This document shows, piece after piece, positions 3,592 through 28,625 of a stretch of DNA of 35,056 nucleotides. This DNA is from a virus (Duplodnaviria > Heunggongvirae > Uroviricota > Caudoviricetes). Positions within the stretch are counted from its first letter, which is position 1; each line of letters begins with the position of its first letter. Under the pieces are notes generated by a model that saw nothing but the letters and a program-made list of their open reading frames with translations, was not told the DNA's origin and did not search any database. A program made the translations under genes and the position numbers. The DNA lies in IMG/VR virus record IMGVR_UViG_2734482782_000004. The stretch is one strand, 5' to 3'.

Positions 3592-6039
3592 TTAACCGTC
3601 ATGCATCATGCTGGCACGGGCGCGCGCACGTTTATCCCGCTCGTATTTTTCGAGCGCATCCTGTAACTGGCGGTCGAGCTGTGTCCCCGGCGCAGTACCA
3701 CCCGTCAGGCTGATGTGATATTCGTTTTTACTCTGGTCTACATAAGAGCGGCCAGCAGGTGCCGTGACCGGCTGATAAGCCTGATAACCTGCATAAGAGC
3801 TGGTCGCCGGAATATAACCACCGCTGCCATACGTGGCGGCTTGAGTTCTGGCGGCGGTCTGGTCAAGTGTGTCTGACTCTTTGTTGATAACACCGAGTTT
3901 TTCCAGTACCCAGTCAATACCACTGCGCAGTTTGTTGAACGCATTAAGCGGCAGTATCAGCGCGTCAGCCAGTGCCTGCCCGAACATGACGCCCGTGTCA
4001 CGGCAACGGTTCAGGGTGTCCTGGGTGGCTTTGACCGGGGCAATCAGGTTTTTAAACCACTGCCACGCGGCCTGTAACTTTTCGCCCAGCCAGTCAAACA
4101 CCGGCTTCAGTGGCGTGAACAGTTCCCCCACCGGCGCAAATGCCGCTTTCAGCCCTTCAACCACACCGCCAAAGAATGCGCTGACAGGCTCCCAGTATTT
4201 ACGGATAAGCAACGCCCCGGCGACAATGGCGGCCACCACGGCCACAACCGGCCAGCTAATCGCCCCGATGGCCGTCATAACAGCACTGCTAACCGTCGTG
4301 AAGATTGCCCCCATTGCGCCTGCTGCCGCGATAATGGCATTGATGCCGGTGATAACCGGCCAGGCTACAAGACCAATGGCACCGATGATGCCAGTCAGCG
4401 CCAGCGCGCCACCGACAATGAGGCCGATGGTTGACGCCAGTGATTTGTTTTTCTGGATCCAGCCGTCGAGTTTTAACACATACTTTGTGGCCGTCTGTGT
4501 GAGCTTACGCAGTGCGCCTTCCTGCTGGTCAAACAGGTCAGTCCCCACCGCCTCATAAGCGGACTGAAACTCCTTAAAGTCACCGCCGAGGTTGTCCTGC
4601 ATGATATTTACCAGCTCTGCGGTCTTCCCGTCTGAGGCTTTAAACGCAGCGGTCAGTTTGTCCAGCTTTCCGGTTGAGGCGGCAGTCATCAGCACGGCGG
4701 CGGCTGAGCTGGCCTCCTCCCCGAAAATAGTTTTCATGTATTCAGCCTGCTGGGCAGTACCGAGCCGGTTTTTCTCAAAACTGGCCTGCATTTCTTTCAG
4801 AATGGTAAATACTGGTCGGGTGTTTCCCTTGCTGTCTGAGGTTTTCACTCCAAGCTCTTTGAGTGCATCCCATGCTTTTCCCGTCGGTGCCTGCAGGCGG
4901 CTTAACACGGCACGGCTTCCCGTCCCCGCCATTGAGCCTGTGATTTTTGCATCATGCAGCGCCCCGACCATTGCGGCGGTTTCTTCAATGCTGACACCGG
5001 CATTTTTTGCCACAGGTGCGGCATAGGTCAGCGCATCGCTCATGCCGTCAAAATCGGCGGCGGTTTTGTTCATCGTCATGGAGAGAACATCCCCTATATG
5101 AGCGACCTTATCGTTTGAAAGCTGAAAGGCGGATTTCATCCCCATCAGCAGGGCGGCGTTTTCTTCCATCGTGCGGCGGTTCGCCAGCGCCATATTCAGC
5201 GTGACCGGCGTTGCCGCCTGAATGGCATCAACATCCCCACCCGCTTTCGCGATGATAATCTGTGCACCGGCTGCATCATCTGCCGAGGCTGCGGTATTGT
5301 CGCCGAGCTGGCGCGCCTGCTTGCGGAGTGCGGTCATTTCGGCGGAGTCTTTTGCCACTCCTAGCACGGCCTGCAATTCTGAGTTTTTCTGCGCAAACTC
5401 ATAACCGGGCATCAGCAGCTTAACTCCGGCCATCGTTCCCGCCGCCGCAATCCCCACACCGGCAGCGCCCACCGAGGCCATATTTCCGGCCAGTTCCTTT
5501 CCGGCCTGATAACGCTGTTTTACTGCGTTAAGTTTTGCCTGTTGTGCACTGACACGCGCCAGCGCGTCGCGCTGTCGGTTAAGCTGTGCGGTGGTTTCAC
5601 TGATACGGTTTTTCAGTCCCTGCTCATCATGTGCAAGATTGCGGGTATTAATTCCCACAGCGGCCAGTTCCCGCTGCTGGCGTTTAACGGAATCCGTCAG
5701 GCGGTTATATTTCGCCTGTAAGTCCTCCGCCGCACGCTTTGCGGATTCCAGCACTTTCGCCTGAGCACGGGTCGGACGTTCGGTGTTTTTAAACTGTGTG
5801 GCAAGGGCTTCGGCCTCCTGCCGTGCCTTTTCAAGTGCATGACCAGTCACAGCGAGCTGTGCACTGGTCTTGCGGAATCCCTCAATACGGGATGCGTGAC
5901 CGTTCAGCTCGCGCAGTGATTTTTGTGTTTCCCGGATATCCCCCGACAGCGACTTACTCGCTGTGCGGATGGATTTAAACGGGCGGGATGCCTGGTCAAC
6001 AGCCCTGAGCAATACCTGTAATTTTACATTGTTACTCAT
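3592..6039 (-). CDS. T: Tail tape measure protein gpT
   Basis: 815-aa ORF (P2 T length); coiled-coil-rich N-terminal half, Ala/Gly-rich hydrophobic central segment; start ATG overlaps the E' stop. Confidence 0.85.
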   Translation of the reverse strand: MSNNVKLQVLLRAVDQASRPFKSIRTASKSLSGDIRETQKSLRELNGHASRIEGFRKTSAQLAVTGHALEKARQEAEALATQFKNTERPTRAQAKVLESAKRAAEDLQAKYNRLTDSVKRQQRELAAVGINTRNLAHDEQGLKNRISETTAQLNRQRDALARVSAQQAKLNAVKQRYQAGKELAGNMASVGAAGVGIAAAGTMAGVKLLMPGYEFAQKNSELQAVLGVAKDSAEMTALRKQARQLGDNTAASADDAAGAQIIIAKAGGDVDAIQAATPVTLNMALANRRTMEENAALLMGMKSAFQLSNDKVAHIGDVLSMTMNKTAADFDGMSDALTYAAPVAKNAGVSIEETAAMVGALHDAKITGSMAGTGSRAVLSRLQAPTGKAWDALKELGVKTSDSKGNTRPVFTILKEMQASFEKNRLGTAQQAEYMKTIFGEEASSAAAVLMTAASTGKLDKLTAAFKASDGKTAELVNIMQDNLGGDFKEFQSAYEAVGTDLFDQQEGALRKLTQTATKYVLKLDGWIQKNKSLASTIGLIVGGALALTGIIGAIGLVAWPVITGINAIIAAAGAMGAIFTTVSSAVMTAIGAISWPVVAVVAAIVAGALLIRKYWEPVSAFFGGVVEGLKAAFAPVGELFTPLKPVFDWLGEKLQAAWQWFKNLIAPVKATQDTLNRCRDTGVMFGQALADALILPLNAFNKLRSGIDWVLEKLGVINKESDTLDQTAARTQAATYGSGGYIPATSSYAGYQAYQPVTAPAGRSYVDQSKNEYHISLTGGTAPGTQLDRQLQDALEKYERDKRARARASMMHDG

Positions 6040-7046: not shown

Positions 7047-8237
7047 TTAATTGCTGTTAACCGAGGTGACCAGATTTGCCAGGTATTTATCGGTAATACG
7101 CTGGCGCAGGGTCAGGTTTTCAAGAGGAGGAACCGGGGTATAGTCGTAGTCGATATACAGTTTTCCGGCCTTAAGGGTTTCCGCATCGTTGGATTCTTCG
7201 CTGAACCAGCAGGTCGCATCCACGATATAGCCGTTTGTTTTCAGCTCACGAAATTTGGCATTGATGCCGTCAACGATGTCGCGAATCAGCGTTGCGGTGA
7301 TGGGCTTGTCCACCGCCCACATGTGCGCCTCAGCCATCGTGTCGGCCAGCACCTGCGCGGTGCGGGTGTAGTTTTCAAAGAGGAACAGCGGGTCATCGGA
7401 GCAGGTACGGTTACCCCAGAAGCGGAAACCGTCGCGGCGAATCAGCGTAGTGACGCCTGACTCGTTAAGCAGGTCAGCATCGGTGCCGGACTCCTGCAAA
7501 TCCCAGAATACAGAGGCACTGATGCCGGTAACACCGTTTACCCCGACATTGGACAGCGTTTTATGCCAGCCCTGCTCCTGGTCGATTTTAGCGCGCAGAC
7601 CCAGCGCACGGGCGGTGGCATACGCGGTGGCGGTGGTACTGGTGACCGTATCCCATGCGAGGAAATCAGGCCAGATGACCATCAGCTCACGCTGGCTGAA
7701 ATTCTGGCGGTAGGCTTTCACCTCGGAAATGGTCTTACAGCCCCATGCGCTGATATATCCGAAAGCGCGCAGCTTCTGACAGACTGATGCCAGTGCAACA
7801 GCCACCTCTTTGGTGTCCAGTCCCGGCACGCCGAGAATACGCGGTTTAACACCGGTTACCGACTCCGCCGCCAGCAGGGCTTTCAGTCCGGTGTACTGGC
7901 CGTTTTCGTCGGTGGTGCCGATGATATTGGAAACGGTCTGCGCAAGTTTCGTTTCTTCGTCTTCGCCGGTGCCGTCTTCCACACGTACAACAACGGTGAC
8001 TGGTTTTGACTGGTCAGCGATGGCCTGCAACGACGCCGCCAGCGTGCCTTTTTTACCGGCCTTTGCAATTGCGCTCTGCACATTGGTAATCAGCACAGGT
8101 TTATTGAGGGGAAAGGTTTCCGCATCCGCATCGCTGGCCGTGCAGACCATGCCGACAATGGCAGTGGATACGGTGGAAATGACGCGGGTGCCGTCGTTAA
8201 TCTCCAGCACCTGCACGCCGTGATGATAGTCACTCAT
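7047..8237 (-). CDS. FI: Contractile tail sheath protein gpFI
   Basis: 396-aa ORF, P2 FI length and position; GGAG ribosome-binding site upstream of the ATG. Confidence 0.85.
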   Translation of the reverse strand: MSDYHHGVQVLEINDGTRVISTVSTAIVGMVCTASDADAETFPLNKPVLITNVQSAIAKAGKKGTLAASLQAIADQSKPVTVVVRVEDGTGEDEETKLAQTVSNIIGTTDENGQYTGLKALLAAESVTGVKPRILGVPGLDTKEVAVALASVCQKLRAFGYISAWGCKTISEVKAYRQNFSQRELMVIWPDFLAWDTVTSTTATAYATARALGLRAKIDQEQGWHKTLSNVGVNGVTGISASVFWDLQESGTDADLLNESGVTTLIRRDGFRFWGNRTCSDDPLFLFENYTRTAQVLADTMAEAHMWAVDKPITATLIRDIVDGINAKFRELKTNGYIVDATCWFSEESNDAETLKAGKLYIDYDYTPVPPLENLTLRQRITDKYLANLVTSVNSN

Positions 8238-8333
8238 CCGTTTAACTCCGTGGTTAATGGGTGCAACTATTTTCTGTTGTGCAGAGCATGAGACGCTATT
8301 TGACCTGGCTGGTCAGGGGATGAAACAACAGAT

Positions 8334-8359
8334 AAAGAAAATGCGGGCAATTCGCCCGC
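8334..8359 (-). terminator. Rho-independent terminator separating the cargo locus from the FI late promoter region
   Basis: Hairpin gcgggc-aatt-gcccgc (8343..8359) followed on the minus strand by attttcttt. Confidence 0.45.
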
Positions 8360-8517
8360 CTGTCCTGATTTGTACTCACTCATTTTCCGCCTGACAATTT
8401 ACATAGCCCAAATGCTATCAAATCTGACAGTCTGCTTTGAGCGAGGAGCGGACATTGAGCTTGGTCTCAAGTATGCTGATTTTTTTTAGCTAATATCTTG
8501 GTTTTTTGATCAATAGG

Positions 8518-8547
8518 TTGCTGGTCAGCCCTAGGATCAGATATAAA
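8518..8547 (+). promoter_or_regulatory. Candidate sigma70 promoter for the HNH-like cargo gene
   Basis: TTGCTG (8518..8523), 18-bp spacer, TATAAA (8542..8547), about 55 bp upstream of the ATG at 8603; read by eye only. Confidence 0.3.
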
Positions 8548-8602
8548 AAGTATGATTTTATTCTCCCCACATAGATGAAAAAAACAAAGAAGCATAACTT
8601 TT

Positions 8603-9355
8603 ATGACCAAGACAAATAGGCACAACTTTCCTCCAAGCGTTGTAGGTAAGGTAGCAGAGCGCGCTGCATATATTTGTAGCAATCCCTCTTGTCATAGGGT
8701 AACAATCGGCCCGGATCAATTGGCGGAAAATCTTTCTATCAAGACGGGTGAGGCGGCGCATATCTGCGCGGCGAGCCCTGGCGGACCGCGCTATGACATG
8801 TCTCAGTCAGAAACAGAGCGGAAGAGCATAAAAAATGCTATATGGTTGTGCGGAGCTTGTGCTGATTTAGTTGATAAGAATGGCGGTATGGGCTACCCCG
8901 CCGAGTATTTGCGAAAATGGAAACGTGACCACGAATCACTAATGAAGGAGTGCTTGGAGGGAGGAAAGAGGCTAATTTTTCAATTTCTATCGCATCGCCC
9001 AGACGAGAAAATTGCTCTGCGGGTGATCCATTTATTGGAAGACAAGAGTTCTCTTTATCTGCCATATGCTCAAGAGGATCCAGCACGAGTCTCGGATTCT
9101 TTGAAGGAGCTCCGACTCTCTCTTACGGCGATTCGCTCCGAGATTGCACCTGAGTCTCCGCTATCGTTGATCGTCGAGTCAATTGTCCGTGCGTGCCGAC
9201 ACTATATGAATTCAACGCCAGATCGGCCGGGCATTGATGAGCTTAACTTCTCCCTCGGCGCAGTTCGTAAGGTAGTAGGAATTAACATCGGAGAACTATT
9301 GAAACACTATGAAATCCAGGTGAGTCACGAATTGCATTCTATTATTCCTAAATGA
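8603..9355 (+). CDS. Cargo protein with N-terminal HNH-like nuclease motif and a C-terminal domain of unknown function (candidate defence effector)
   Basis: 250-aa ORF in AT-rich DNA at the Z/fun position; residues 25-93 read C-x4-C-H ... GEAAHICAASPGG ... N-x4-LCGAC ... DKN, resembling the HNH beta-beta-alpha-Me fold with a Cys4 zinc knuckle; own terminator at 9378..9412. Confidence 0.6.
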   Translation: MTKTNRHNFPPSVVGKVAERAAYICSNPSCHRVTIGPDQLAENLSIKTGEAAHICAASPGGPRYDMSQSETERKSIKNAIWLCGACADLVDKNGGMGYPAEYLRKWKRDHESLMKECLEGGKRLIFQFLSHRPDEKIALRVIHLLEDKSSLYLPYAQEDPARVSDSLKELRLSLTAIRSEIAPESPLSLIVESIVRACRHYMNSTPDRPGIDELNFSLGAVRKVVGINIGELLKHYEIQVSHELHSIIPK

Positions 9356-9377
9356 ATTTTAACCAATAACTCAAGTT

Positions 9378-9412
9378 GGCGAAGCCTGAAAAAGATGAGC
9401 TTCGCCATTTTT
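9378..9412 (+). terminator. Rho-independent terminator after the HNH-like gene
   Basis: Hairpin ggcgaagc-(13 nt)-gcttcgcc followed by attttt. Confidence 0.6.
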
Positions 9413-9516
9413 CTCGGACCTTGAGTAATTAGTGCAGACACAATAAGCATATTGTTTTCGAGTGCACGACGAACGTAGTTTTCGATACTTTGAGTATTAT
9501 AGCTTCAACTTTTTAC

Positions 9517-10302
9517 TTACATCAAAAATAACTTACAATATTTGTAAGTTGCTTTGTGTACGAAAATGCTTGCGTCAACTCTTGACATCGGATTTTTTAA
9601 TATCCCTCCGGAACTTCCCTTTCCATGTCTCGCAAGATACCCTAACAGTTCAAAGCTATTAGCAGTGCCCGTGAATCTGCTGATTTCCTTTTCATCAATA
9701 TTAAAAGCCATGCTAATTACTTTATCTCTCTGATATTTCTTGCCTTTATAAGTGTCGGGAAAATTTAGTATACCTTTCACATATTTATCATATACATATT
9801 CTCTAATTGTTTCCCACAAACGATAAAGATTAACCCAATCATCACCTAAGGCACACATACCTAAAACAACACGTAAGGATTCATGTTTAGATGATAAATT
9901 AATTAATCGTGAAAAATTATCAGCGCGAGGGTGTGGTTGCTGTATGTCATGGAAATTAAAGGGGTTTACCTGAGTTACATCCATTGATTTAAAGCCGCAT
10001 ATTTCCGAGTAATTAATGCCTTCACTTCCAGAAATAGAAAGAGGACCAAAAGATTGATATCTTTCAAAACCATAAAGAACGCTAAGTGCGCCGTTCATGA
10101 GCATCAACAAACCTTTTAACTTGGAAGCCAATTCATTTGGGTCGGATATGATATTCAAATGAGGAGATGAAAGTAAATGAATATCTGTTTGCCCTAAATC
10201 AGAGTCAGAATCATCATTTATAGAGAAATCATTCGACCAAACTCCACATAATCTTTTAACAAATCCTGTAGATGGAGTAAGTAAAAAACTATAATCGTAC
10301 AT
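9517..10302 (-). CDS. Hypothetical cargo protein, 261 aa, no recognisable motif
   Basis: Long ORF in strongly AT-rich DNA, where chance ORFs of this length are unlikely; ATG at 10300..10302 preceded by GAGGGA about 8 nt upstream; convergent with the HNH-like gene. Confidence 0.55.
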   Translation of the reverse strand: MYDYSFLLTPSTGFVKRLCGVWSNDFSINDDSDSDLGQTDIHLLSSPHLNIISDPNELASKLKGLLMLMNGALSVLYGFERYQSFGPLSISGSEGINYSEICGFKSMDVTQVNPFNFHDIQQPHPRADNFSRLINLSSKHESLRVVLGMCALGDDWVNLYRLWETIREYVYDKYVKGILNFPDTYKGKKYQRDKVISMAFNIDEKEISRFTGTANSFELLGYLARHGKGSSGGILKNPMSRVDASIFVHKATYKYCKLFLM

Positions 10303-10456
10303 AACTCAAATCCCTCTTTTTTATATCCTAAATGGAATACAAAAATTATTGTTTATTTGTTATGTTCAATATACTCACATAACCGAAAACTTTAACACGC
10401 TCATTCTAAGTGAACTAAATCTAAAGATATACCTTTGAAAACTGAAAACTCAATGC

Positions 10457-10487
10457 TGGCAACGTCCGCTCCTGGCACAAAGCGAAC
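10457..10487. repeat. 31-bp imperfect direct repeat, copy A (27/31 identical to copy B)
   Basis: tggcaacgtccgctcctggcacaaagcgaac here versus tggcaatgtctgctcctggcacagagcggac at 11820..11850. Confidence 0.7.
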
Positions 10488-10551
10488 ATTCCTTGACGTC
10501 CTGTCAGGGAAACCCACCTGGACGTTCAGGTGATTCTGTCGATTATAGTCA

Positions 10552-10577
10552 TAAAAAAGCCGCCCCGGAGGGACGGC
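10552..10577 (-). terminator. Strong rho-independent terminator of the 227-aa membrane-protein gene
   Basis: Minus-strand GC-rich hairpin gccgtccc-tcc-ggggcggc followed by TTTTTTAT, about 80 nt downstream of the stop at 10657. Confidence 0.7.
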
Positions 10578-10656
10578 TATAAACTCGCCAGTTAACAAGC
10601 TGATTTTACCGCTTACGCGGTTCTGTCGTTGCGGTGTTCGCTGACCCACTGCGCCT

Positions 10657-11340
10657 TTACAGTTTATCGCTTATGAATCCATGAGCCTTAAATGTCCTGA
10701 CAAAATCCTCATAGCGCGCAATCATCCCCCCCGATGTTTCACGCACATTTTGCTGATGAAAGCGGAAGTTTGCCTCCGATTCAACACTCTTACTCTTCCA
10801 GTCATGGGGAAGGCTTAGCATCACTGGCTTTCTGTTCGGGTAATCAACACTCATAAATGGTAGCGTACTATCTACGTATGCGGTCATAGCGTCCAAAAAA
10901 GCGTCTTTCGCACCATTCACTTCAGTATTGAATAACCGATACTTTTCACCGCTAAATTTTTCAGCTTTTTCAATGTTTAAGCAAACATCTTGCCGTATAC
11001 CGCTCAGGTAGCTCTGCTCAACCCATTGAGTAGTATCCTCATAAGGCAGCAATTCAAGGATCTGGTCGATTATCTTCAGATCATGTTCATCTTGCTTTTT
11101 TTTTACAGGGTCCTCAGTAGATTCATTGGATGTGTGGTAAACGTTGGTGGTCTGATTAATATCCCGCCCGGCCTGGTTCACATCACCCTCGGTTTTCTTT
11201 GCCTTCTGTTTTATGTTGTTTTGCTGTCTGATTCTATATGTAACACCGCCCCCAATACCAAACAGTGCCAGTACGCCGACTAATAAGCTAAGATAGGTAG
11301 CTGCGTCTGCACCAAAATGTGCATTAAGCCATTCAGTCAT
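10657..11340 (-). CDS. Cargo membrane-anchored protein, 227 aa (N-terminal TM helix, then soluble domain); candidate single-gene defence or abortive-infection effector
   Basis: ORF with hydrophobic segment AATYLSLLVGVLALFGIGGGV at residues about 12-33; own extended -10 promoter and own terminator; AAGGA ribosome-binding site. Confidence 0.6.
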   Translation of the reverse strand: MTEWLNAHFGADAATYLSLLVGVLALFGIGGGVTYRIRQQNNIKQKAKKTEGDVNQAGRDINQTTNVYHTSNESTEDPVKKKQDEHDLKIIDQILELLPYEDTTQWVEQSYLSGIRQDVCLNIEKAEKFSGEKYRLFNTEVNGAKDAFLDAMTAYVDSTLPFMSVDYPNRKPVMLSLPHDWKSKSVESEANFRFHQQNVRETSGGMIARYEDFVRTFKAHGFISDKL

Positions 11341-11370
11341 TTGAACTATGTCCTTACAGTGTGAGTAAAG

Positions 11371-11400
11371 ATTATAATAACAGAGCTAACTTGCGCAGAA
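11371..11400 (-). promoter_or_regulatory. Candidate extended -10 sigma70 promoter of the 227-aa gene
   Basis: Minus-strand reads ttctgcgcaagttagctctgTtattataat: TGnTATTAT / TATAAT element with a weak -35; lies immediately downstream of the terminator at 11403..11433. Confidence 0.45.
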
Positions 11401-11402
11401 AC

Positions 11403-11433
11403 GAAAAAAGGCAGGGGAGGTAACCCCCCTGCC
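11403..11433 (-). terminator. Rho-independent terminator, probable end of the tail-fibre late transcript
   Basis: Minus-strand hairpin ggcagggg-(loop)-cccctgcc (11410..11433) followed by TTTTTTCGTTT. Confidence 0.65.
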
Positions 11434-11819
11434 TTTAATCAAGTTCCTCCATCCCTTACGGGCGTCCGGTCAGTTGCTTGATGGCAACCAGACCAGCTAG
11501 CATTATTTGCATCACCAGTAAGACTGTTGTTAGCGTTATCACTTCGACGTCTCCTCTTCCAGGAGAGCGCCACACGTAGTAAGTGCTTTTGGTTCTACCC
11601 GCCCCCCTCACTCCGCATCCATTAGTTAGCAGGTACAAGCAGCACTCTTTCGTGTGGTAAGCCAACAGGACAGCACTGGACTGACGCCTTGAGCTTTAAT
11701 ATTTCCTTCCGATCCATACAACTAGGTCTGTTAAAAGCCCCTAGGACGAATTCTACAGAGATGGCTATGGTGCAGGTTTCGGCTATAGGGCTCTTTGATG
11801 TAATCGAGGGTCATAACGT

Positions 11820-11850
11820 TGGCAATGTCTGCTCCTGGCACAGAGCGGAC
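11820..11850. repeat. 31-bp imperfect direct repeat, copy B, just 3' of gene G
   Basis: See copy A; copy B overlaps the left arm of a 10-bp-stem hairpin (11836..11877, tggcacagag / ctctgtgcca) lying 22 nt downstream of the G stop. Confidence 0.7.
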
Positions 11851-11899
11851 TGTCAGATTAGGCTTTACTCTGTGCCATAGATATGTAAGCTAATACAAC

Positions 11900-12427
11900 T
11901 TATTGCGGCATTTCCGGCCATTCAGGATTTGCAGGATCCACACGACTGATCAGAACGCTGTAGCGTTCCCATGATTCCAGTCGGCTACGCTCCTCATCTG
12001 TTGCCATGTTCAGTCTGACCGCGCGCTCCAGCGGCAAAATCACGGATTCAGCATCTGCAAGAAGTCTGGCTTTCCGAATTTCTGCCTGCTGCTGTAATTC
12101 CTCTGCCGTATAAATGCGTTTAATCACTTTGCCGTCCTTAAACATCCAGTTCCCTGAAATGTCCGCCCGTCGGTTAGCAGTAATATCCGCCACTTCAACA
12201 ACACTTAATCCATCCGGTCTGATAGCTGTCACATCCTTTTCCACATAGTGGATGATATTATCTTTGTCGTACGCTATTTTTATCGTGTCATCAGCAAAAT
12301 ACTTTTGTTCTTCGTACCAGTTCTTACCATCTTCTGAAAAAAACCAGACAACATCAAAGTCCTTTGTCAATTGATATTGTTCAACCGTTTTTGGATTACC
12401 CGCCGTAATATTTTTTAAATGCTGCAT
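11900..12427 (-). CDS. G: Tail fibre assembly chaperone gpG
   Basis: 175-aa ORF immediately downstream of H, P2 G length. Confidence 0.8.
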
Positions 12428-12430
12428 AAA

Positions 12431-14680
12431 TTATACCTGCGCCACGTTATACCATGTCCCGTTAATGTATTTCTGCACCGGTCTGTAATATACGCCACCA
12501 ATGTTATCGGCAGAGTTTGAGCCGGTATCCTGAACAATAATGCCGGTATATACGCAACCTGACGGAGCCTGATGCGTCCATGTAGTACCATTATTTGCTG
12601 GTTTATATGTAGATGCACCGCCCAGCCGCATGTCTCTCACATAACGTGAATCTGACTCAGTTTTGGTGTATGCACCAACATCTCCCGCTGAGGGTTTATG
12701 AGCAGTTGTATATAGTTGCGCCCATCCAGACCAGTTAGCATCTGTGGTATCTCTTCGGGAACGAATATATGCCGGAGCATGAGCACCGCTGGTTCCACTC
12801 CAGCCAATAAGTAACTCACCCTCTCCTACTGCGGTTACGCCAGTGAGATGAAGCACATTACCATAGGCTGTTGGGTAGCCATTGTTGTATGCCTCATACA
12901 TCTGAATACCTGGTGTCCCCTTTACGCTCCCACCTAATGCATTAACACGGTTTCTGGATACCAGTGTATTAATATTTATATCGGCAGAGCCATCAAATCT
13001 GACACCATTAATATTTCTTGCGTTCGCTAACTTCGTTGCTGTTGCAGCATTTCCTGAAAGGCTGGAAATAAATGGATGTGAACAGTAATAACCACGTCCA
13101 TTTTTAAAATCCAGAATAGCCTGTGCGTTCGTGCTTTCTGTAGCGGGATTAGTTGCCCCCCACTTATATGTCGTTTGACCGACGACATAATCCTCTGTCG
13201 GAACAATAACCGTTAGCCCTTCCTCTGCAAGAATTTGTACAGGGAAAGCTCTGGCTTCAACATAAAAAACACTACATACATCATCATCTTTCAGGCTTGT
13301 AACAATGGAATGGATTGAACGCTCATTAGTCTGATACGTCCAGAAATAACCTGCCGCATATGAACCACGATCAGTCCAGCCTCCGGGCATAACCATGCCA
13401 TTAAACTCGCAGTTATTCATTACATAATCGCCGTTATAACAACCAGTGGAAATAACAACGCGGGATGCCATTTCTCCTGAAAGGCTGGCAGCACGGCGAA
13501 AGATAACGGGGTACCACTTCCCGGCAACGACATTTGCAGGGGCTGCAAACGAATACTTTCGCATTCCCTTTTTCTTATCCACTTCACCTTTGCTGTAAAC
13601 ATTAATGTTACTCAGGAAGCGTTCTTTATCAGGGATATCCGCACCGTTTTGATCTTTCTGAAGACGTTTTTCAGCATTGTCATAGGCAGACTTCACCGCC
13701 TTTGGCGTTGCAGCCTGCGTTTCAGAATCACTGTTGGTGGCGCTACTGAGCTGGACAAGACCTTTTCGCGCCGTGGTGGCATCCTGTGCAGTGTATTTCC
13801 CGTTAGCAAGGTCATATGCTGTCTTAACCGCCTTTGGCGTTGCCGCAAGCGTTTCAGAATCGCTGTTGGTGGCGCTACTGAGCTGAACAAGGCCTTTTCG
13901 CGCTGTTGTGGCATCCTGTGCAGTGTATTTCCCGTTAGCAAGGTCATATGCTGCCTTTACCGCTTTCGGCGTTGCGGCGAGCGTTTCAGACGTGCTGTTA
14001 GTCGCACTACTGAGCTGAACAAGGCCTTTTCGCGCGGTGGTAGCGTCCTGTGCGGTATATTTCCCGTTAGCAAGGTCATATGCGGCCTTAACCGCTTTCG
14101 GAGTTGCAGCCAGTGTTTCAGACGTGCTGTTGGTCGCACTGCTTAACTGAGTAAAACCTTTTGCGGTCAGCGAGGCGTCAGGGTGACGTCGTGACTGTTC
14201 ATGTTCTGCAATTTTGTCATCAACGTAATCCTGCGTTGCCATCACCGTTGTGGTGTCAATGGTCAGCTCCACTGAGGCCACACTGCTGACGATGATGACC
14301 ATGCGGCAGGTCTGCGAACGCCCTGAGCCTTCGGCAAGGGCTGGCTTATAACTTTCGGCCATGTTCGCCACGGCAATTAGCGTTCCCGCATCATCGTACA
14401 GGCCAAGTTCACGCATCCAGAAACCACCCACCTCCGGCGGAATAACCAGCTCTGCGATAATATAATTACTGTTTCGTTTGTCCTGGCTGATTTTGTTCAG
14501 CGCATGTCGCCAGACTTCATGGATAAGCCCGGTCTGTCCGGCATCCGGGACAGGCAATTTACCACCGCCATCCCCGACGGCCATCGTGGTAATGTTGACC
14601 TTCCGCCCTCCCGGTGCGGTTGCCGCTGCCAGCTTTGCTGCACCGGCAGTGGTGATAACGGTTTTGAATTTTGTGCTCAT
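12431..14680 (-). CDS. H: Tail fibre protein gpH, with an expanded internal tandem repeat
   Basis: 749-aa ORF; N-terminus MSTKFKTVITTAGAAKLAAATAPGG is P2 H-like; contains about 3.8 tandem copies of a 44-aa unit (LSSATNSTSETLAATPKAVKAAYDLANGKYTAQDATTARKG); longer than P2 H (669 aa by memory). Confidence 0.85.
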   Translation of the reverse strand: MSTKFKTVITTAGAAKLAAATAPGGRKVNITTMAVGDGGGKLPVPDAGQTGLIHEVWRHALNKISQDKRNSNYIIAELVIPPEVGGFWMRELGLYDDAGTLIAVANMAESYKPALAEGSGRSQTCRMVIIVSSVASVELTIDTTTVMATQDYVDDKIAEHEQSRRHPDASLTAKGFTQLSSATNSTSETLAATPKAVKAAYDLANGKYTAQDATTARKGLVQLSSATNSTSETLAATPKAVKAAYDLANGKYTAQDATTARKGLVQLSSATNSDSETLAATPKAVKTAYDLANGKYTAQDATTARKGLVQLSSATNSDSETQAATPKAVKSAYDNAEKRLQKDQNGADIPDKERFLSNINVYSKGEVDKKKGMRKYSFAAPANVVAGKWYPVIFRRAASLSGEMASRVVISTGCYNGDYVMNNCEFNGMVMPGGWTDRGSYAAGYFWTYQTNERSIHSIVTSLKDDDVCSVFYVEARAFPVQILAEEGLTVIVPTEDYVVGQTTYKWGATNPATESTNAQAILDFKNGRGYYCSHPFISSLSGNAATATKLANARNINGVRFDGSADININTLVSRNRVNALGGSVKGTPGIQMYEAYNNGYPTAYGNVLHLTGVTAVGEGELLIGWSGTSGAHAPAYIRSRRDTTDANWSGWAQLYTTAHKPSAGDVGAYTKTESDSRYVRDMRLGGASTYKPANNGTTWTHQAPSGCVYTGIIVQDTGSNSADNIGGVYYRPVQKYINGTWYNVAQV
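13664..14161. repeat. Tandem 132-bp repeats (about 3.8 copies) inside the tail fibre gene
   Basis: Direct inspection: the block gcgctactgagctg(g/a)acaag(a/g)ccttttcgcgc... recurs with a 132-bp period; it also creates an artefactual Cys/Arg-rich antisense ORF. Confidence 0.8.
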
Positions 14681-27543: not shown

Positions 27544-27548
27544 ACATC

Positions 27549-27570
27549 GCCGCCTGCGGGCGGCTTTTTT
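27549..27570 (+). terminator. Rho-independent terminator after Q
   Basis: Hairpin gccgcc-tgcg-ggcggc followed by TTTTTT. Confidence 0.7.
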
Positions 27571-27712
27571 ACAACCCGCCATCACGCCCTCACACGCTCA
27601 CCACCGCACAAAACAGCCCGCAGACACACCAACGCCCCGGCGAACAATCTAAACGCCATCACGACGCGCTCAGACGCTGAAAAAATAAAATCAGCACCAC
27701 CGCCAGCGCGCA

Positions 27713-27731
27713 GTGCTTTCCCCGCCTCGCC
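27713..27731. other. cos cohesive-end site (19 nt)
   Basis: gtgctttccccgcctcgcc is the reverse complement of the P2 cohesive end GGCGAGGCGGGGAAAGCAC as I recall it; it sits between Q and the replication genes, as expected for a prophage. Confidence 0.75.
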
Positions 27732-28015
27732 CGCCCGCTTCACAGGGCGGTTTTAATGCAGTTGCATAGATACTATGGATCCGCACCAGTCCTGACCGCA
27801 CGCAGCCTGAACGGACATCCCCAACGCATGCAAAAACATTCACTTGTTGCATGCATAGCTTTTTAAGTACGCCATACCGCAACTGTACATTTTTAAGCAA
27901 TTGGCAACTTTAAAAAATTTACATTGCTTTCAAGACCTTATCATCCGTAGTCTCTGTTTTTTACTTTGAGCTACATCAATAAAATCTCAAACATGTTTAA
28001 TGCAAAGCCCTTGTT

Positions 28016-28069
28016 ACACAACATAGAATGTATGTCTAGAAACAACGACATACTATATGTTGTGTTTTT
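28016..28069 (+). terminator. Long imperfect hairpin (10-bp outer plus 7-bp inner stem) followed by a T-tract; candidate terminator, attenuator or structured RNA
   Basis: acacaacata (28016..28025) pairs with tatgttgtgt (28056..28065); inner gtatgtc / gacatac; followed by TTTT. Confidence 0.4.
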
Positions 28070-28209
28070 CCGGCTCTCTGTTCGGTGATATGCCAAATCA
28101 CTTTGCGTTTAAACAGAGCATTATTTCAGGGCAAGACTTCGCTCAAAAGTCATTCCACCTAAGAAGCGCATATACCGGTGGAAGTTGCCCTCTACTTACA
28201 GGAGGCAAT

Positions 28210-28323
28210 ATGAAGAAATGCTATTACTGCATTCTCGTTCTGGCCCTCTTTGGCTATCCAAACGGTAGTCCGAGTGGTTTGTCAGTAAACGTCAGTAATA
28301 TCAATGTCAGCATTATGCTTTAA
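28210..28323 (+). CDS. Candidate small hydrophobic peptide (37 aa) in the tin/old-position cargo region
   Basis: ATG at 28210 preceded by consensus AGGAGG (28200..28205); product MKKCYYCILVLALFGYPNGSPSGLSVNVSNINVSIML; followed by a bidirectional terminator; flanked by 15-bp direct repeats. Confidence 0.35.
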   Translation: MKKCYYCILVLALFGYPNGSPSGLSVNVSNINVSIML

Positions 28324-28340
28324 TATGCTTCAAACAAAAA

Positions 28341-28365
28341 AACCACCTGCCAGGGTGGTTTTTTT
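28341..28365. terminator. Bidirectional rho-independent terminator
   Basis: Hairpin aaccacc-tgccag-ggtggtt with T-tract downstream and A-tract upstream. Confidence 0.65.
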
Positions 28366-28625
28366 GCGCCCATCATCAATACGATGAAAGACTGACAAGA
28401 CTTCGCTCAAGACGAATTATGCGTCGACATAAGGTTACCCGCAATGATTTTATTAGACTAAATGGATGGCCTTTTATGACCCGGATCAAACGGCTGTCCT
28501 TACCGACATGCTAGTCACTCAATAGCATTTAGCCTTCTAATTCAGCATGCTATTGACCTTCTGCTGCCCCATAACTGCTCCGCATAAGCCATTCAATGCC
28601 ATATCAAATTACGTTGTGTTTTTAC

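What the first reader, a model, noticed from the sequence alone, without database searches (positions are those of the whole stretch)
8238..11899. Z/fun-position cargo island: three unrecognised genes, each with its own promoter and terminator signals
Seen in sequence: about 3.7 kb between the late tail operons (FI and G), much of it visibly AT-rich compared with the backbone. It holds a 250-aa HNH-like protein (+), a 261-aa protein (-) and a 227-aa membrane-anchored protein (-), separated by intrinsic terminators at 9378..9412, 10552..10577 and 11403..11433. Established knowledge: the FI-G interval (Z/fun) is a hypervariable moron locus in P2-like phages where anti-phage defence genes are exchanged. 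Inference: these genes are candidate defence or abortive-infection modules; I cannot assign any of them to a named family, so they may be undescribed.
Basis: partly seen in the sequence, partly recalled or inferred. Interest (0 to 1): 0.8.

Follow-up and report, generated by a model that had tools for sequence, protein, structure and literature searches.

The report
Defence-type gene cassettes in P2 hotspot
The gap between two tail operons of a P2-like prophage holds three independent accessory genes, most likely anti-phage genes though none has been tested, packaged as two mobile cassettes that are bounded by a conserved palindromic DNA site also found at cassette borders in plasmids and genomic islands.

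Summary
Window 8238-11899 lies between tail sheath FI and tail-fibre assembly G. It is AT-rich (GC 0.43 against 0.56) and holds the three stated ORFs and three terminator hairpins.

- **Gene 1 (250 aa)** can be assigned. It has a Cap5-type HNH nuclease domain, 39% identical to the HNH of the validated single-gene defence DS-7. [quoted passage not shown] Its relatives are almost always solo genes with no TIR partner.
- **Gene 2 (261 aa)** belongs to a large unnamed superfamily (1167 cluster representatives, no Pfam, NCBIfam or PADLOC model). It has an invariant RHG motif and only a weak HEPN-like fold signal.
- **Gene 3 (227 aa)** is a membrane-anchored helical-bundle protein. Its exact sequence is listed by DefensePredictor as a predicted, untested defence gene.

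The cargo is two cassettes, 8430-10483 and 10464-11861. They are bounded by a dyad site, GTCCGCT-N10-AGCGGAC, that comes in two spacer types. The same sites flank Z/fun cargo in 66 of 120 P2-like viral contigs. They also border these same genes in Klebsiella, Pantoea and CP4-like island contexts.

A defence role is plausible but untested. This is a new variant of a known kind.

The parts
8238..8429 (.). Conserved P2 backbone upstream of FI, including hairpin 8343-8359 (- strand)
   Evidence: Near-identical in P2, Wphi and E. coli cM2a (alignment A1). Hairpin found.
8430..8453 (+). Boundary site A: dyad GTCTGCT-TTGAGCGAGG-AGCGGAC ('A-type' spacer). The extended arm is 8414-8459. This is the left end of cassette 1.
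   Evidence: Homology with the Klebsiella loci starts at 8427/8430.
8603..9355 (+). Gene 1, 250 aa: Cap5-type HNH nuclease (aa 1-120) plus a DUF6650 domain (about aa 128-250)
9378..9412 (+). Intrinsic terminator of gene 1: hairpin 9378-9406 followed by a T-run
   Evidence: and the sequence.
9517..10302 (-). Gene 2, 261 aa: member of a large unnamed superfamily with motifs SxHLN, WVNLYR and FTxTAN-x9-RHG. The Shine-Dalgarno sequence AAGAGGGA lies 8 nt upstream of the ATG.
10464..10487 (-). Boundary site B: dyad GTTCGCT-TTGTGCCAGG-AGCGGAC ('C-type' spacer). It is shared by the right end of cassette 1 and the left end of cassette 2.
10552..10578 (-). Intrinsic terminator downstream of gene 3
10657..11340 (-). 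Gene 3, 227 aa: N-terminal transmembrane helix (aa 15-33), a disordered QAGRDIN-type linker, and a C-terminal helical bundle (aa 78-220)
11401..11436 (-). Strong intrinsic terminator upstream of gene 3. It would stop read-through from the G operon, or from the small ORF at 11456-11542. It is part of cassette 2 in every context examined.
11827..11850 (-). Boundary site C: dyad GTCCGCT-CTGTGCCAGG-AGCAGAC ('C-type' spacer). The extended arm is 11814-11867. This is the right end of cassette 2 and the G-side arm of the hotspot.
8430..10483 (.). Cassette 1 (genes 1 and 2, convergent): 94% identical as a block in a Klebsiella plasmid-type locus and in an smpB island
10464..11861 (.). Cassette 2 (gene 3 with both its terminators): 99.8% identical in CP4-like islands of E. 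coli

Best explanation
The FI-G interval is a two-cassette array carrying three autonomous single-gene accessory modules. These are most likely anti-phage genes expressed from the prophage, and they were acquired by recombination at conserved dyad sites that mark the Z/fun hotspot.

**Gene 1.** It is a self-contained nuclease effector. The N-terminus is a Cap5-type HNH DNase, with a CCCC zinc site and catalytic H53/N78/H110. The C-terminus is a DUF6650 domain. In the Thoeris effector ThsG this domain is modelled as a hexameric ring and responds to 2'cADPR. The inferred mechanism is that the DUF6650 domain holds the nuclease inactive until a ligand or an infection cue triggers it. DNA is then degraded and infection aborts.

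**Gene 2.** It is a soluble, mainly helical enzyme-like protein of an uncharacterised superfamily with an invariant R-H-G. It may be a HEPN-like nuclease toxin, but this is weakly supported.

**Gene 3.** It is anchored in the inner membrane, N-terminus out and C-terminus in, with a cytoplasmic helical bundle. It is inferred to act at the membrane, by superinfection exclusion or abortive infection.

**What is shown and what is inferred.** Shown: gene structure, domain homologies, mobility and the boundary sites. Inferred: the defence role and all three mechanisms.
For: **Location.** This is a published defence hotspot (PMC9519451).

**Gene 1.**
- The PDB profile search matches HNH endonuclease 9om4 (5e-14) and Cap5 SAVED-HNH effectors 8ysq, 7rwk, 7rwm and 8fm1.
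- PADLOC matches CBASS HNH effectors and PDC-M68A.
- The N-terminal 121 aa are 39% identical (E 1e-22) to validated DS-7 (PMC13092281 supplement).
- HNH and zinc residues are invariant in 29 homologues.
- PF20355 is recorded for all 120 listed homologues, and RefSeq uses the DUF6650 name. The hit lies at aa 128-204 in the 54% homologue.
- DUF6650 is the ThsG domain (10.64898/2025.12.03.692087).
- The gene is solo in 7 of 8 contexts, including a Q-holin moron slot of lambdoid prophages.

**Gene 3.** The identical WP_000141343.1 has a DefensePredictor log-odds of 5.34, above the strict cut-off of 4. Homologues are a Vibrio integron cassette and a siphophage moron.

**Cassette structure.**
Against: - None of the three genes or their close homologues has been tested.
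- Genes 2 and 3 match no PADLOC, Pfam or NCBIfam model.
- DefensePredictor hits validated at only 45%.
- The local Pfam copy (PF20355.3) gives no hit for the window protein itself.
- hhalign found no similarity to the DUF6650 region of DS-27.
- No TIR gene is present, so the ligand logic taken from Thoeris may not apply.
- Promoters were not detected above chance.
Confidence: 0.55

Rival explanations
1. Genes 1 and 2 form one two-component system, with the 261-aa protein acting as sensor, signal generator or immunity partner of the HNH-DUF6650 nuclease. Gene 3 is separate.
For: The two genes travel as one block flanked by inverted repeats, with the same 160-bp spacer. This is seen in three unrelated contexts: the P2 slot, a Klebsiella plasmid-type leading region and a Klebsiella smpB island. 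All 15 E. coli genomes that have gene 1 also have gene 2. No boundary site lies between the two genes.
Against: - Gene 2 occurs alone with its own A-type and C-type sites on a Pantoea megaplasmid at 92% identity. It is also alone in a Pantoea ICE and in a prophage.
- A 44% homologue pairs with DUF2971 instead.
- HNH-DUF6650 homologues are solo in 7 other contexts.
- The genes are convergent, and GC differs strongly (0.479 against 0.346).
- The family sizes are very different: 454 or more clusters against 32.
Confidence: 0.15
2. Gene 1 is an orphan type VI Thoeris effector. It responds in trans to 2'cADPR made by a TIR protein encoded elsewhere in the host or in a co-resident element.
For: DUF6650 is the domain of ThsG, which responds specifically to 2'cADPR. 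Cap5-type HNH domains are classic signal-activated effectors. In one Klebsiella island a TIR gene lies two genes away (L007).
Against: - There is no TIR gene in the island, and none in 7 of 8 contexts.
- Described ThsG proteins have no recognised effector domain or carry transmembrane helices, not HNH.
- The single-gene, DUF6650-annotated DS-27 protects in K-12 without a TIR partner.
Confidence: 0.15
3. The cargo is not immunity. The genes are selfish addiction or toxin modules, or lysogenic-conversion functions, that simply ride a recombination hotspot.
For: Genes 2 and 3 have no homology to validated defence proteins. The P2 hotspots also carry non-defence cargo (PMC9122126; iLund4u). The cassettes sit beside toxin-antitoxin genes in a Vibrio integron.
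Against: Gene 1 shares its nuclease domain with validated DS-7. Gene 3 passes the strict DefensePredictor threshold. The neighbours in other contexts are defence-type: TIR, SIR2, HEPN_AbiV, DUF4062, DpnII and SLATT.
Confidence: 0.15

Closest known systems
DS-7 ('SVIR', WP_225403053.1), a validated single-gene defence from DefensePredictor (PMC13092281)
   Same: The N-terminal Cap5-type HNH domain is shared: 39% identity over 121 aa, E 1e-22. Both are single-protein designs with an HNH effector followed by a C-terminal accessory domain.
   Different: The C-terminal domain of DS-7 is DUF2634 (gp25-like sheath initiator), not DUF6650. Gene 1 itself is untested.
ThsG, the effector of type VI Thoeris (TIR + DUF6650; bioRxiv 10.64898/2025.12.03.692087)
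   Same: Both carry a DUF6650 (PF20355) domain.
   Different: There is no adjacent TIR gene. Gene 1 carries an HNH nuclease, which was not reported for ThsG. A response to 2'cADPR is untested.
Cap5 (SAVED-HNH) CBASS effectors, PDB 7rwk, 7rwm, 8fm1, 8ysq
   Same: The HNH subtype is the same (E 3e-9 to 3e-4; PADLOC effector models).
   Different: There is no SAVED domain and no CD-NTase gene.
PADLOC candidate PDC-M68A
   Same: This is the best PADLOC hit: 3.8e-24 over profile positions 5-113.
   Different: Only the N-terminal 45% of the 253-position profile matches. The system is a multi-gene candidate whose partner genes were not seen here.
P2 fun(Z) and the Z/fun hotspot (Vassallo 2022; Nilsson 2004; iLund4u)
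   Same: The genomic slot is the same and the flanking inverted repeat is the same.
   Different: The cargo is unrelated. No phage record holds it: 0 of 50,697, with only the flanks matching.
HEPN-domain toxins and Abi proteins (for gene 2)
   Different: There is no Rx4-6H motif. No sequence or profile similarity was found. The N-terminal half is unassigned.
Integron gene cassettes and engineered cassette exchange with heterospecific sites
   Same: Single-gene, promoter-to-terminator units are bounded by short structured sites. Arrays occur. The same cassettes appear in different replicons. One gene 3 homologue is a Vibrio superintegron cassette.
   Different: The site is a 7-10-7 dyad, not an attC. 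No integron integrase is nearby. The sites are inverted and of two types. The recombinase is unknown.

Membership tests
HNH / His-Me finger nucleases (gene 1) | Catalytic His, Asn and His, with a CCCC zinc site | tested here: met
   C25, C30, H53, N78, C83, C86 and H110 are invariant in 29 homologues. The profile matches solved HNH nucleases.
Type VI Thoeris | Effector with a DUF6650 (PF20355) domain | tested here: inconclusive
   PF20355.5 is recorded for all 120 listed homologues, and for the Klebsiella homologue of gene 1 as an unmarked hit, which by the tool's convention means E-value at most 1e-5. RefSeq uses the DUF6650 name. With the local PF20355.3, however, the window protein gives no hit, and its 54% homologue scores 20 bits, below the cut-off of 27.
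Type VI Thoeris | Adjacent TIR-domain gene that makes the signal | tested here: not met
   There is no TIR in the island. It is absent in 7 of 8 contexts of homologues.
Type VI Thoeris | Activation by 2'cADPR | not testable with these tools
   This needs biochemistry or feeding experiments.
CBASS Cap5 effectors | SAVED sensor domain and a CD-NTase operon | tested here: not met
   Only the HNH part aligns, aa 9-120. No cyclase gene lies in the interval.
PADLOC PDC-M68 | Full-length match to PDC-M68A | tested here: not met
   The match covers profile positions 5-113 of 253 only.
DS-7 (SVIR) family | HNH N-terminus plus a DUF2634/gp25-like C-terminus | tested here: not met
   The HNH domain matches (39% identity). 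The C-terminus does not align.
HEPN superfamily (gene 2) | Four-helix HEPN fold | tested here: inconclusive
   [not shown]
HEPN superfamily (gene 2) | Conserved Rx4-6H catalytic motif | tested here: not met
   The invariant residues are the adjacent R225-H226-G227. No conserved Rx4-6H is present.
P2 Z/fun hotspot cargo | Lies between G and FI, inside the conserved inverted repeat | tested here: met
Published defence predictions (DefensePredictor) | Exact protein listed above a log-odds of 4 | tested here: met
   Gene 3 (WP_000141343.1) scores 5.34. Genes 1 and 2 were not found in the held tables, some of which were cut when stored.

The most novel reading that the evidence does not exclude
The two heterotypic 7-10-7 dyad sites are the substrates of a dedicated cassette-exchange system whose recombinase is still unidentified. 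The sites are A-type GTCCGCT-yTGAGCGAGg-AGCGGAC and C-type GTCCGCT-yTGTGCCAGg-AGCGGAC. The system would shuttle single-gene defence modules among P2-like phages, CP4-type islands, plasmids, ICE-like elements and siphophages. It would be integron-like, but would work as a natural equivalent of recombinase-mediated cassette exchange. Part of this may already have been described by Nilsson et al. 2004, which I could not read.
Probability: 0.25. Interest if true: 0.75.

Novelty: new variant of a known kind. Interest (0 to 1): 0.5.

Why it matters
- **Gene 1** joins two currently active threads: Cap5-type nucleases and the newly described DUF6650/ThsG domain. It does so in a solo protein. Testing it could show whether DUF6650 is a general ligand-gated switch that works without a TIR partner, and how ThsG-type effectors kill.
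- **Gene 2** is an entry point to a superfamily of more than a thousand clusters that has no name and no model in Pfam, NCBIfam or PADLOC.
- **The boundary sites** give a concrete, testable handle on how the Z/fun hotspot exchanges cargo with plasmids and islands. They could also serve as a search key for finding further cassettes.

Tried and rejected
- **Rfam** scan of 8000-12200 at E<=1: only two chance-level hits, none at the repeats.
- **Promoter scan:** fewer sites than in shuffled sequence.
- **Family libraries.** Pfam, NCBIfam, PHROGs and PADLOC gave nothing for genes 2 and 3 themselves or for the minor ORFs. Pfam on the 23 close homologues of gene 2 gave nothing. Pfam on ten remote members of the gene 2 superfamily gave nothing. 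PADLOC and NCBIfam on the 31-member superfamily alignment gave nothing. PADLOC on the gene 3 family gave only three weak hits in 1-2 members.
- **Profile and PDB searches.** The PDB sequence search with the gene 2 superfamily found nothing. hhalign of the gene 2 superfamily against a HEPN_AbiV protein was negative. hhalign of the gene 1 family against DS-27 was negative.
- **Gene 1 against the SMEK protein** of phage 12474III: no similarity.
- **Similarity of the repeat to known sites.** I considered hix/gix invertase sites, dif, Tn3 ends, REP and attC from memory. None looked similar, and none was tested formally.
- **Nilsson 2004** (doi 10.1093/molbev/msg223) is not in the library, so priority for the repeats could not be checked.
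- **Genome-contig scan** with the gene 2 profile: only 5 loci. Their neighbourhoods were uninformative.


Full report
**1. Observation**

The window is a P2-like prophage. The interval 8238-11899 lies between tail sheath FI (7047-8237, -) with tube FII, and tail-fibre assembly G (11900-12427, -) with fibre H.

RefSeq annotates the same three genes in a 99.8% identical E. coli locus.

GC is 0.425 in the interval against 0.563 in FI/FII. Gene 2 is lowest at 0.346.

The three terminator hairpins are real: 9378-9406 (+), 10578-10558 (-) and 11436-11407 (-), with z-scores of -2.2, -3.4 and -5.2.

Promoters were not detected above chance (4 found, 9.1 expected). 'Own promoter' is therefore an inference from orientation and from the terminators between the genes.

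**2. Rarity and mobility**

- The complete island occurs in 15 of 5426 complete E. coli genomes.
- It occurs in none of 50,697 phage records, where only the flanks match.
- Two IMG/VR contigs carry it (L053, L148).
- The gene 3 block occurs in 34 genomes. About half of these are in a different setting: CP4-type islands next to a GTPase gene and Ag43.

**3. Boundary sites**

A 37-nt inverted repeat flanks the cargo (8421-8457 and 11823-11859, 86% complementary). A third copy lies at 10452-10487. None is expected by chance.

The core of the repeat is a dyad, GTCCGCT-N10-AGCGGAC. It has two spacer types:
- A-type (TGAGCGAG), on the FI side.
- C-type (TGTGCCAG), at the internal site and on the G side.

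P2, Wphi and phage 12474III carry the same arms around unrelated cargo.

In 120 P2-like IMG/VR loci recovered with the arm sequence, 66 show the outer inverted pair. The cargo enclosed is 0.66-5.8 kb, with a median of 1.48 kb. 'A+ ... C-' is the dominant complete arrangement, and some loci hold arrays.

The sites are not only P2 backbone:
- Homology between the window and two Klebsiella contexts, a plasmid-type leading region and an smpB island, runs from inside site A to inside site B (8427/8430 to 10479/10483, 94% identity).
- Homology with CP4-like islands runs from site B to just past site C (10464-11861, 99.8%).
- On a Pantoea megaplasmid, gene 2 alone (92% identity) sits between its own A-type and C-type sites.
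- In E. coli SE11, a DUF2971 cassette and the gene 3 cassette are separated by the same sites.

The island is therefore two cassettes, 8430-10483 and 10464-11861, that overlap at site B.

This pattern fits site-specific recombination or short-homology exchange at these sites. The enzyme is unknown. The title of Nilsson et al. 2004 suggests that the repeats may already have been noticed, but I could not read the paper.

**4. Gene 1**

The N-terminal 120 residues are a Cap5-type HNH nuclease:
- PADLOC matches CBASS HNH effectors and PDC-M68A, N-terminal part only.
- The PDB profile search matches 9om4 and the Cap5 structures.
- The zinc and catalytic residues are invariant.
- The domain is 39% identical (E 1e-22) to the HNH domain of DS-7, a validated single-gene E. 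coli defence whose C-terminus is a gp25-like baseplate domain.

The C-terminal half is assigned to DUF6650 (PF20355). The evidence is the precomputed hits on all 120 listed homologues, the RefSeq name, and a sub-threshold hit at aa 128-204 in a 54% homologue. The local Pfam version does not hit the window protein itself.

DUF6650 is the domain of ThsG, the effector of type VI Thoeris. ThsG responds to 2'cADPR and is modelled as a hexameric ring. The domain is also annotated in the validated single-gene system DS-27. I could not show direct similarity to DS-27.

Homologues are widespread: at least 454 clusters across several phyla. They are solo genes in 7 of 8 contexts examined, including a moron slot between Q and the holin in lambdoid prophages. 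A TIR gene is nearby in only one context.

Gene 1 is therefore not a canonical Thoeris or CBASS component. It is a new domain combination of the 'Cap5-type HNH plus variable C-terminal module' design.

**5. Gene 2**

Close relatives are few: 32 clusters, all Enterobacterales. A profile search nevertheless finds 1167 cluster representatives of similar length. No Pfam, NCBIfam or PADLOC model covers them.

- Invariant across the superfamily: G71, R225, H226 and G227.
- Nearly invariant: S46, H48, Y160, F210, T213, N215 and G221.

Relatives sit in an ICE, a prophage, plasmids and islands, sometimes beside DUF2971.

**6. Gene 3**

- One transmembrane helix spans aa 15-33. The Lys/Arg-rich stretch after it implies an N-out, C-in topology.
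- A disordered linker with QAGRDIN-type repeats follows.
- The C-terminus is a confidently modelled helical bundle (aa 78-220). Its fold matches are only generic.

The family is small, at 16 clusters. It includes a Vibrio superintegron cassette and a siphophage moron downstream of tail-fibre genes.

The identical protein WP_000141343.1 is listed by DefensePredictor as a predicted novel defence gene. Its log-odds is 5.34, the strict cut-off is 4, and the overall validation rate was 45%. It was not among the tested units.

A marginal profile hit to Vibrio phage XM1 baseplate protein gp11 (E 8.6e-5) is not backed by the fold search.

**7. Are genes 1 and 2 a pair?**

They co-travel as one block. 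Against a functional pair:
- Gene 2 exists as a complete cassette on its own.
- Both families are mostly solo.
- The genes are convergent.
- Their base composition differs strongly.

I rate a functional pair at about 0.15.

**8. Verdict**

The most interesting additions are:
- the HNH-DUF6650 architecture;
- the size of the unnamed gene 2 superfamily;
- the two-type dyad sites that delimit the cassettes across replicons.

All functional claims remain untested.

Noticed in passing
window 11456-11542 (-): A possible 28-codon gene, VITLTTVLLVMQIMLAGLVAIKQLTGRP. It has a strong Shine-Dalgarno sequence (GGAAGAGGAG) 8 nt before a GTG start. It ends 20 nt before the strong terminator at 11436-11407. 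The shape is that of a small hydrophobic membrane peptide, or a type I toxin. It lies inside cassette 2 and is carried in every copy of that cassette.
   Followed up: partly
L005/L006/L008 4785-5756 (Klebsiella): An IS110-family transposase gene lies directly beside the C-type boundary site (5821-5852) of cassette 1. IS110-type elements often target conserved repeats, so this one may have inserted at the site.
   Followed up: no
L009-L012 5141-5896; L021 3562-4290; L151 3388-4116: DUF2971 proteins turn up repeatedly next to homologues of gene 2 (Klebsiella aerogenes) and gene 3 (Vibrio integron; E. coli SE11 island, within a cassette bounded by the same sites).
   Followed up: no
window 27544-28625: The other P2 hotspot (old/tin position, between portal Q and replication gene A) is almost empty here. 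Its only ORF is 88 aa (28057-28323), with no Pfam match.
   Followed up: partly
L053 (IMG/VR) about 8295-9597 and 11637-12792: The same island occurs at 99.6% identity, interrupted by two extra segments of about 1.2-1.3 kb. They lie near window positions 8533 and 10568 and may be insertion sequences.
   Followed up: no
L001 6662-8132 (E. coli cM2a): In the best-matching genome the prophage is truncated just after gene G. The tail-fibre gene is reduced to a fragment next to yegR. The island therefore survives in a decayed prophage.
   Followed up: no
window 12431-14680 (-), tail fibre H: The tail-fibre protein contains four tandem copies of a roughly 46-aa unit (...TARKGLVQLSSATNS[TD]SETLAATPKAVKAAYDLANGKYTAQDAT...).
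   Followed up: no
L024 1119-2201 (phage vB_EcoM-12474III): A SMEK_N-domain protein occupies the same Z/fun slot between the same arms. A different SMEK protein (DS-27) is a validated defence annotated with DUF6650.
   Followed up: partly
[not shown]
   Followed up: partly
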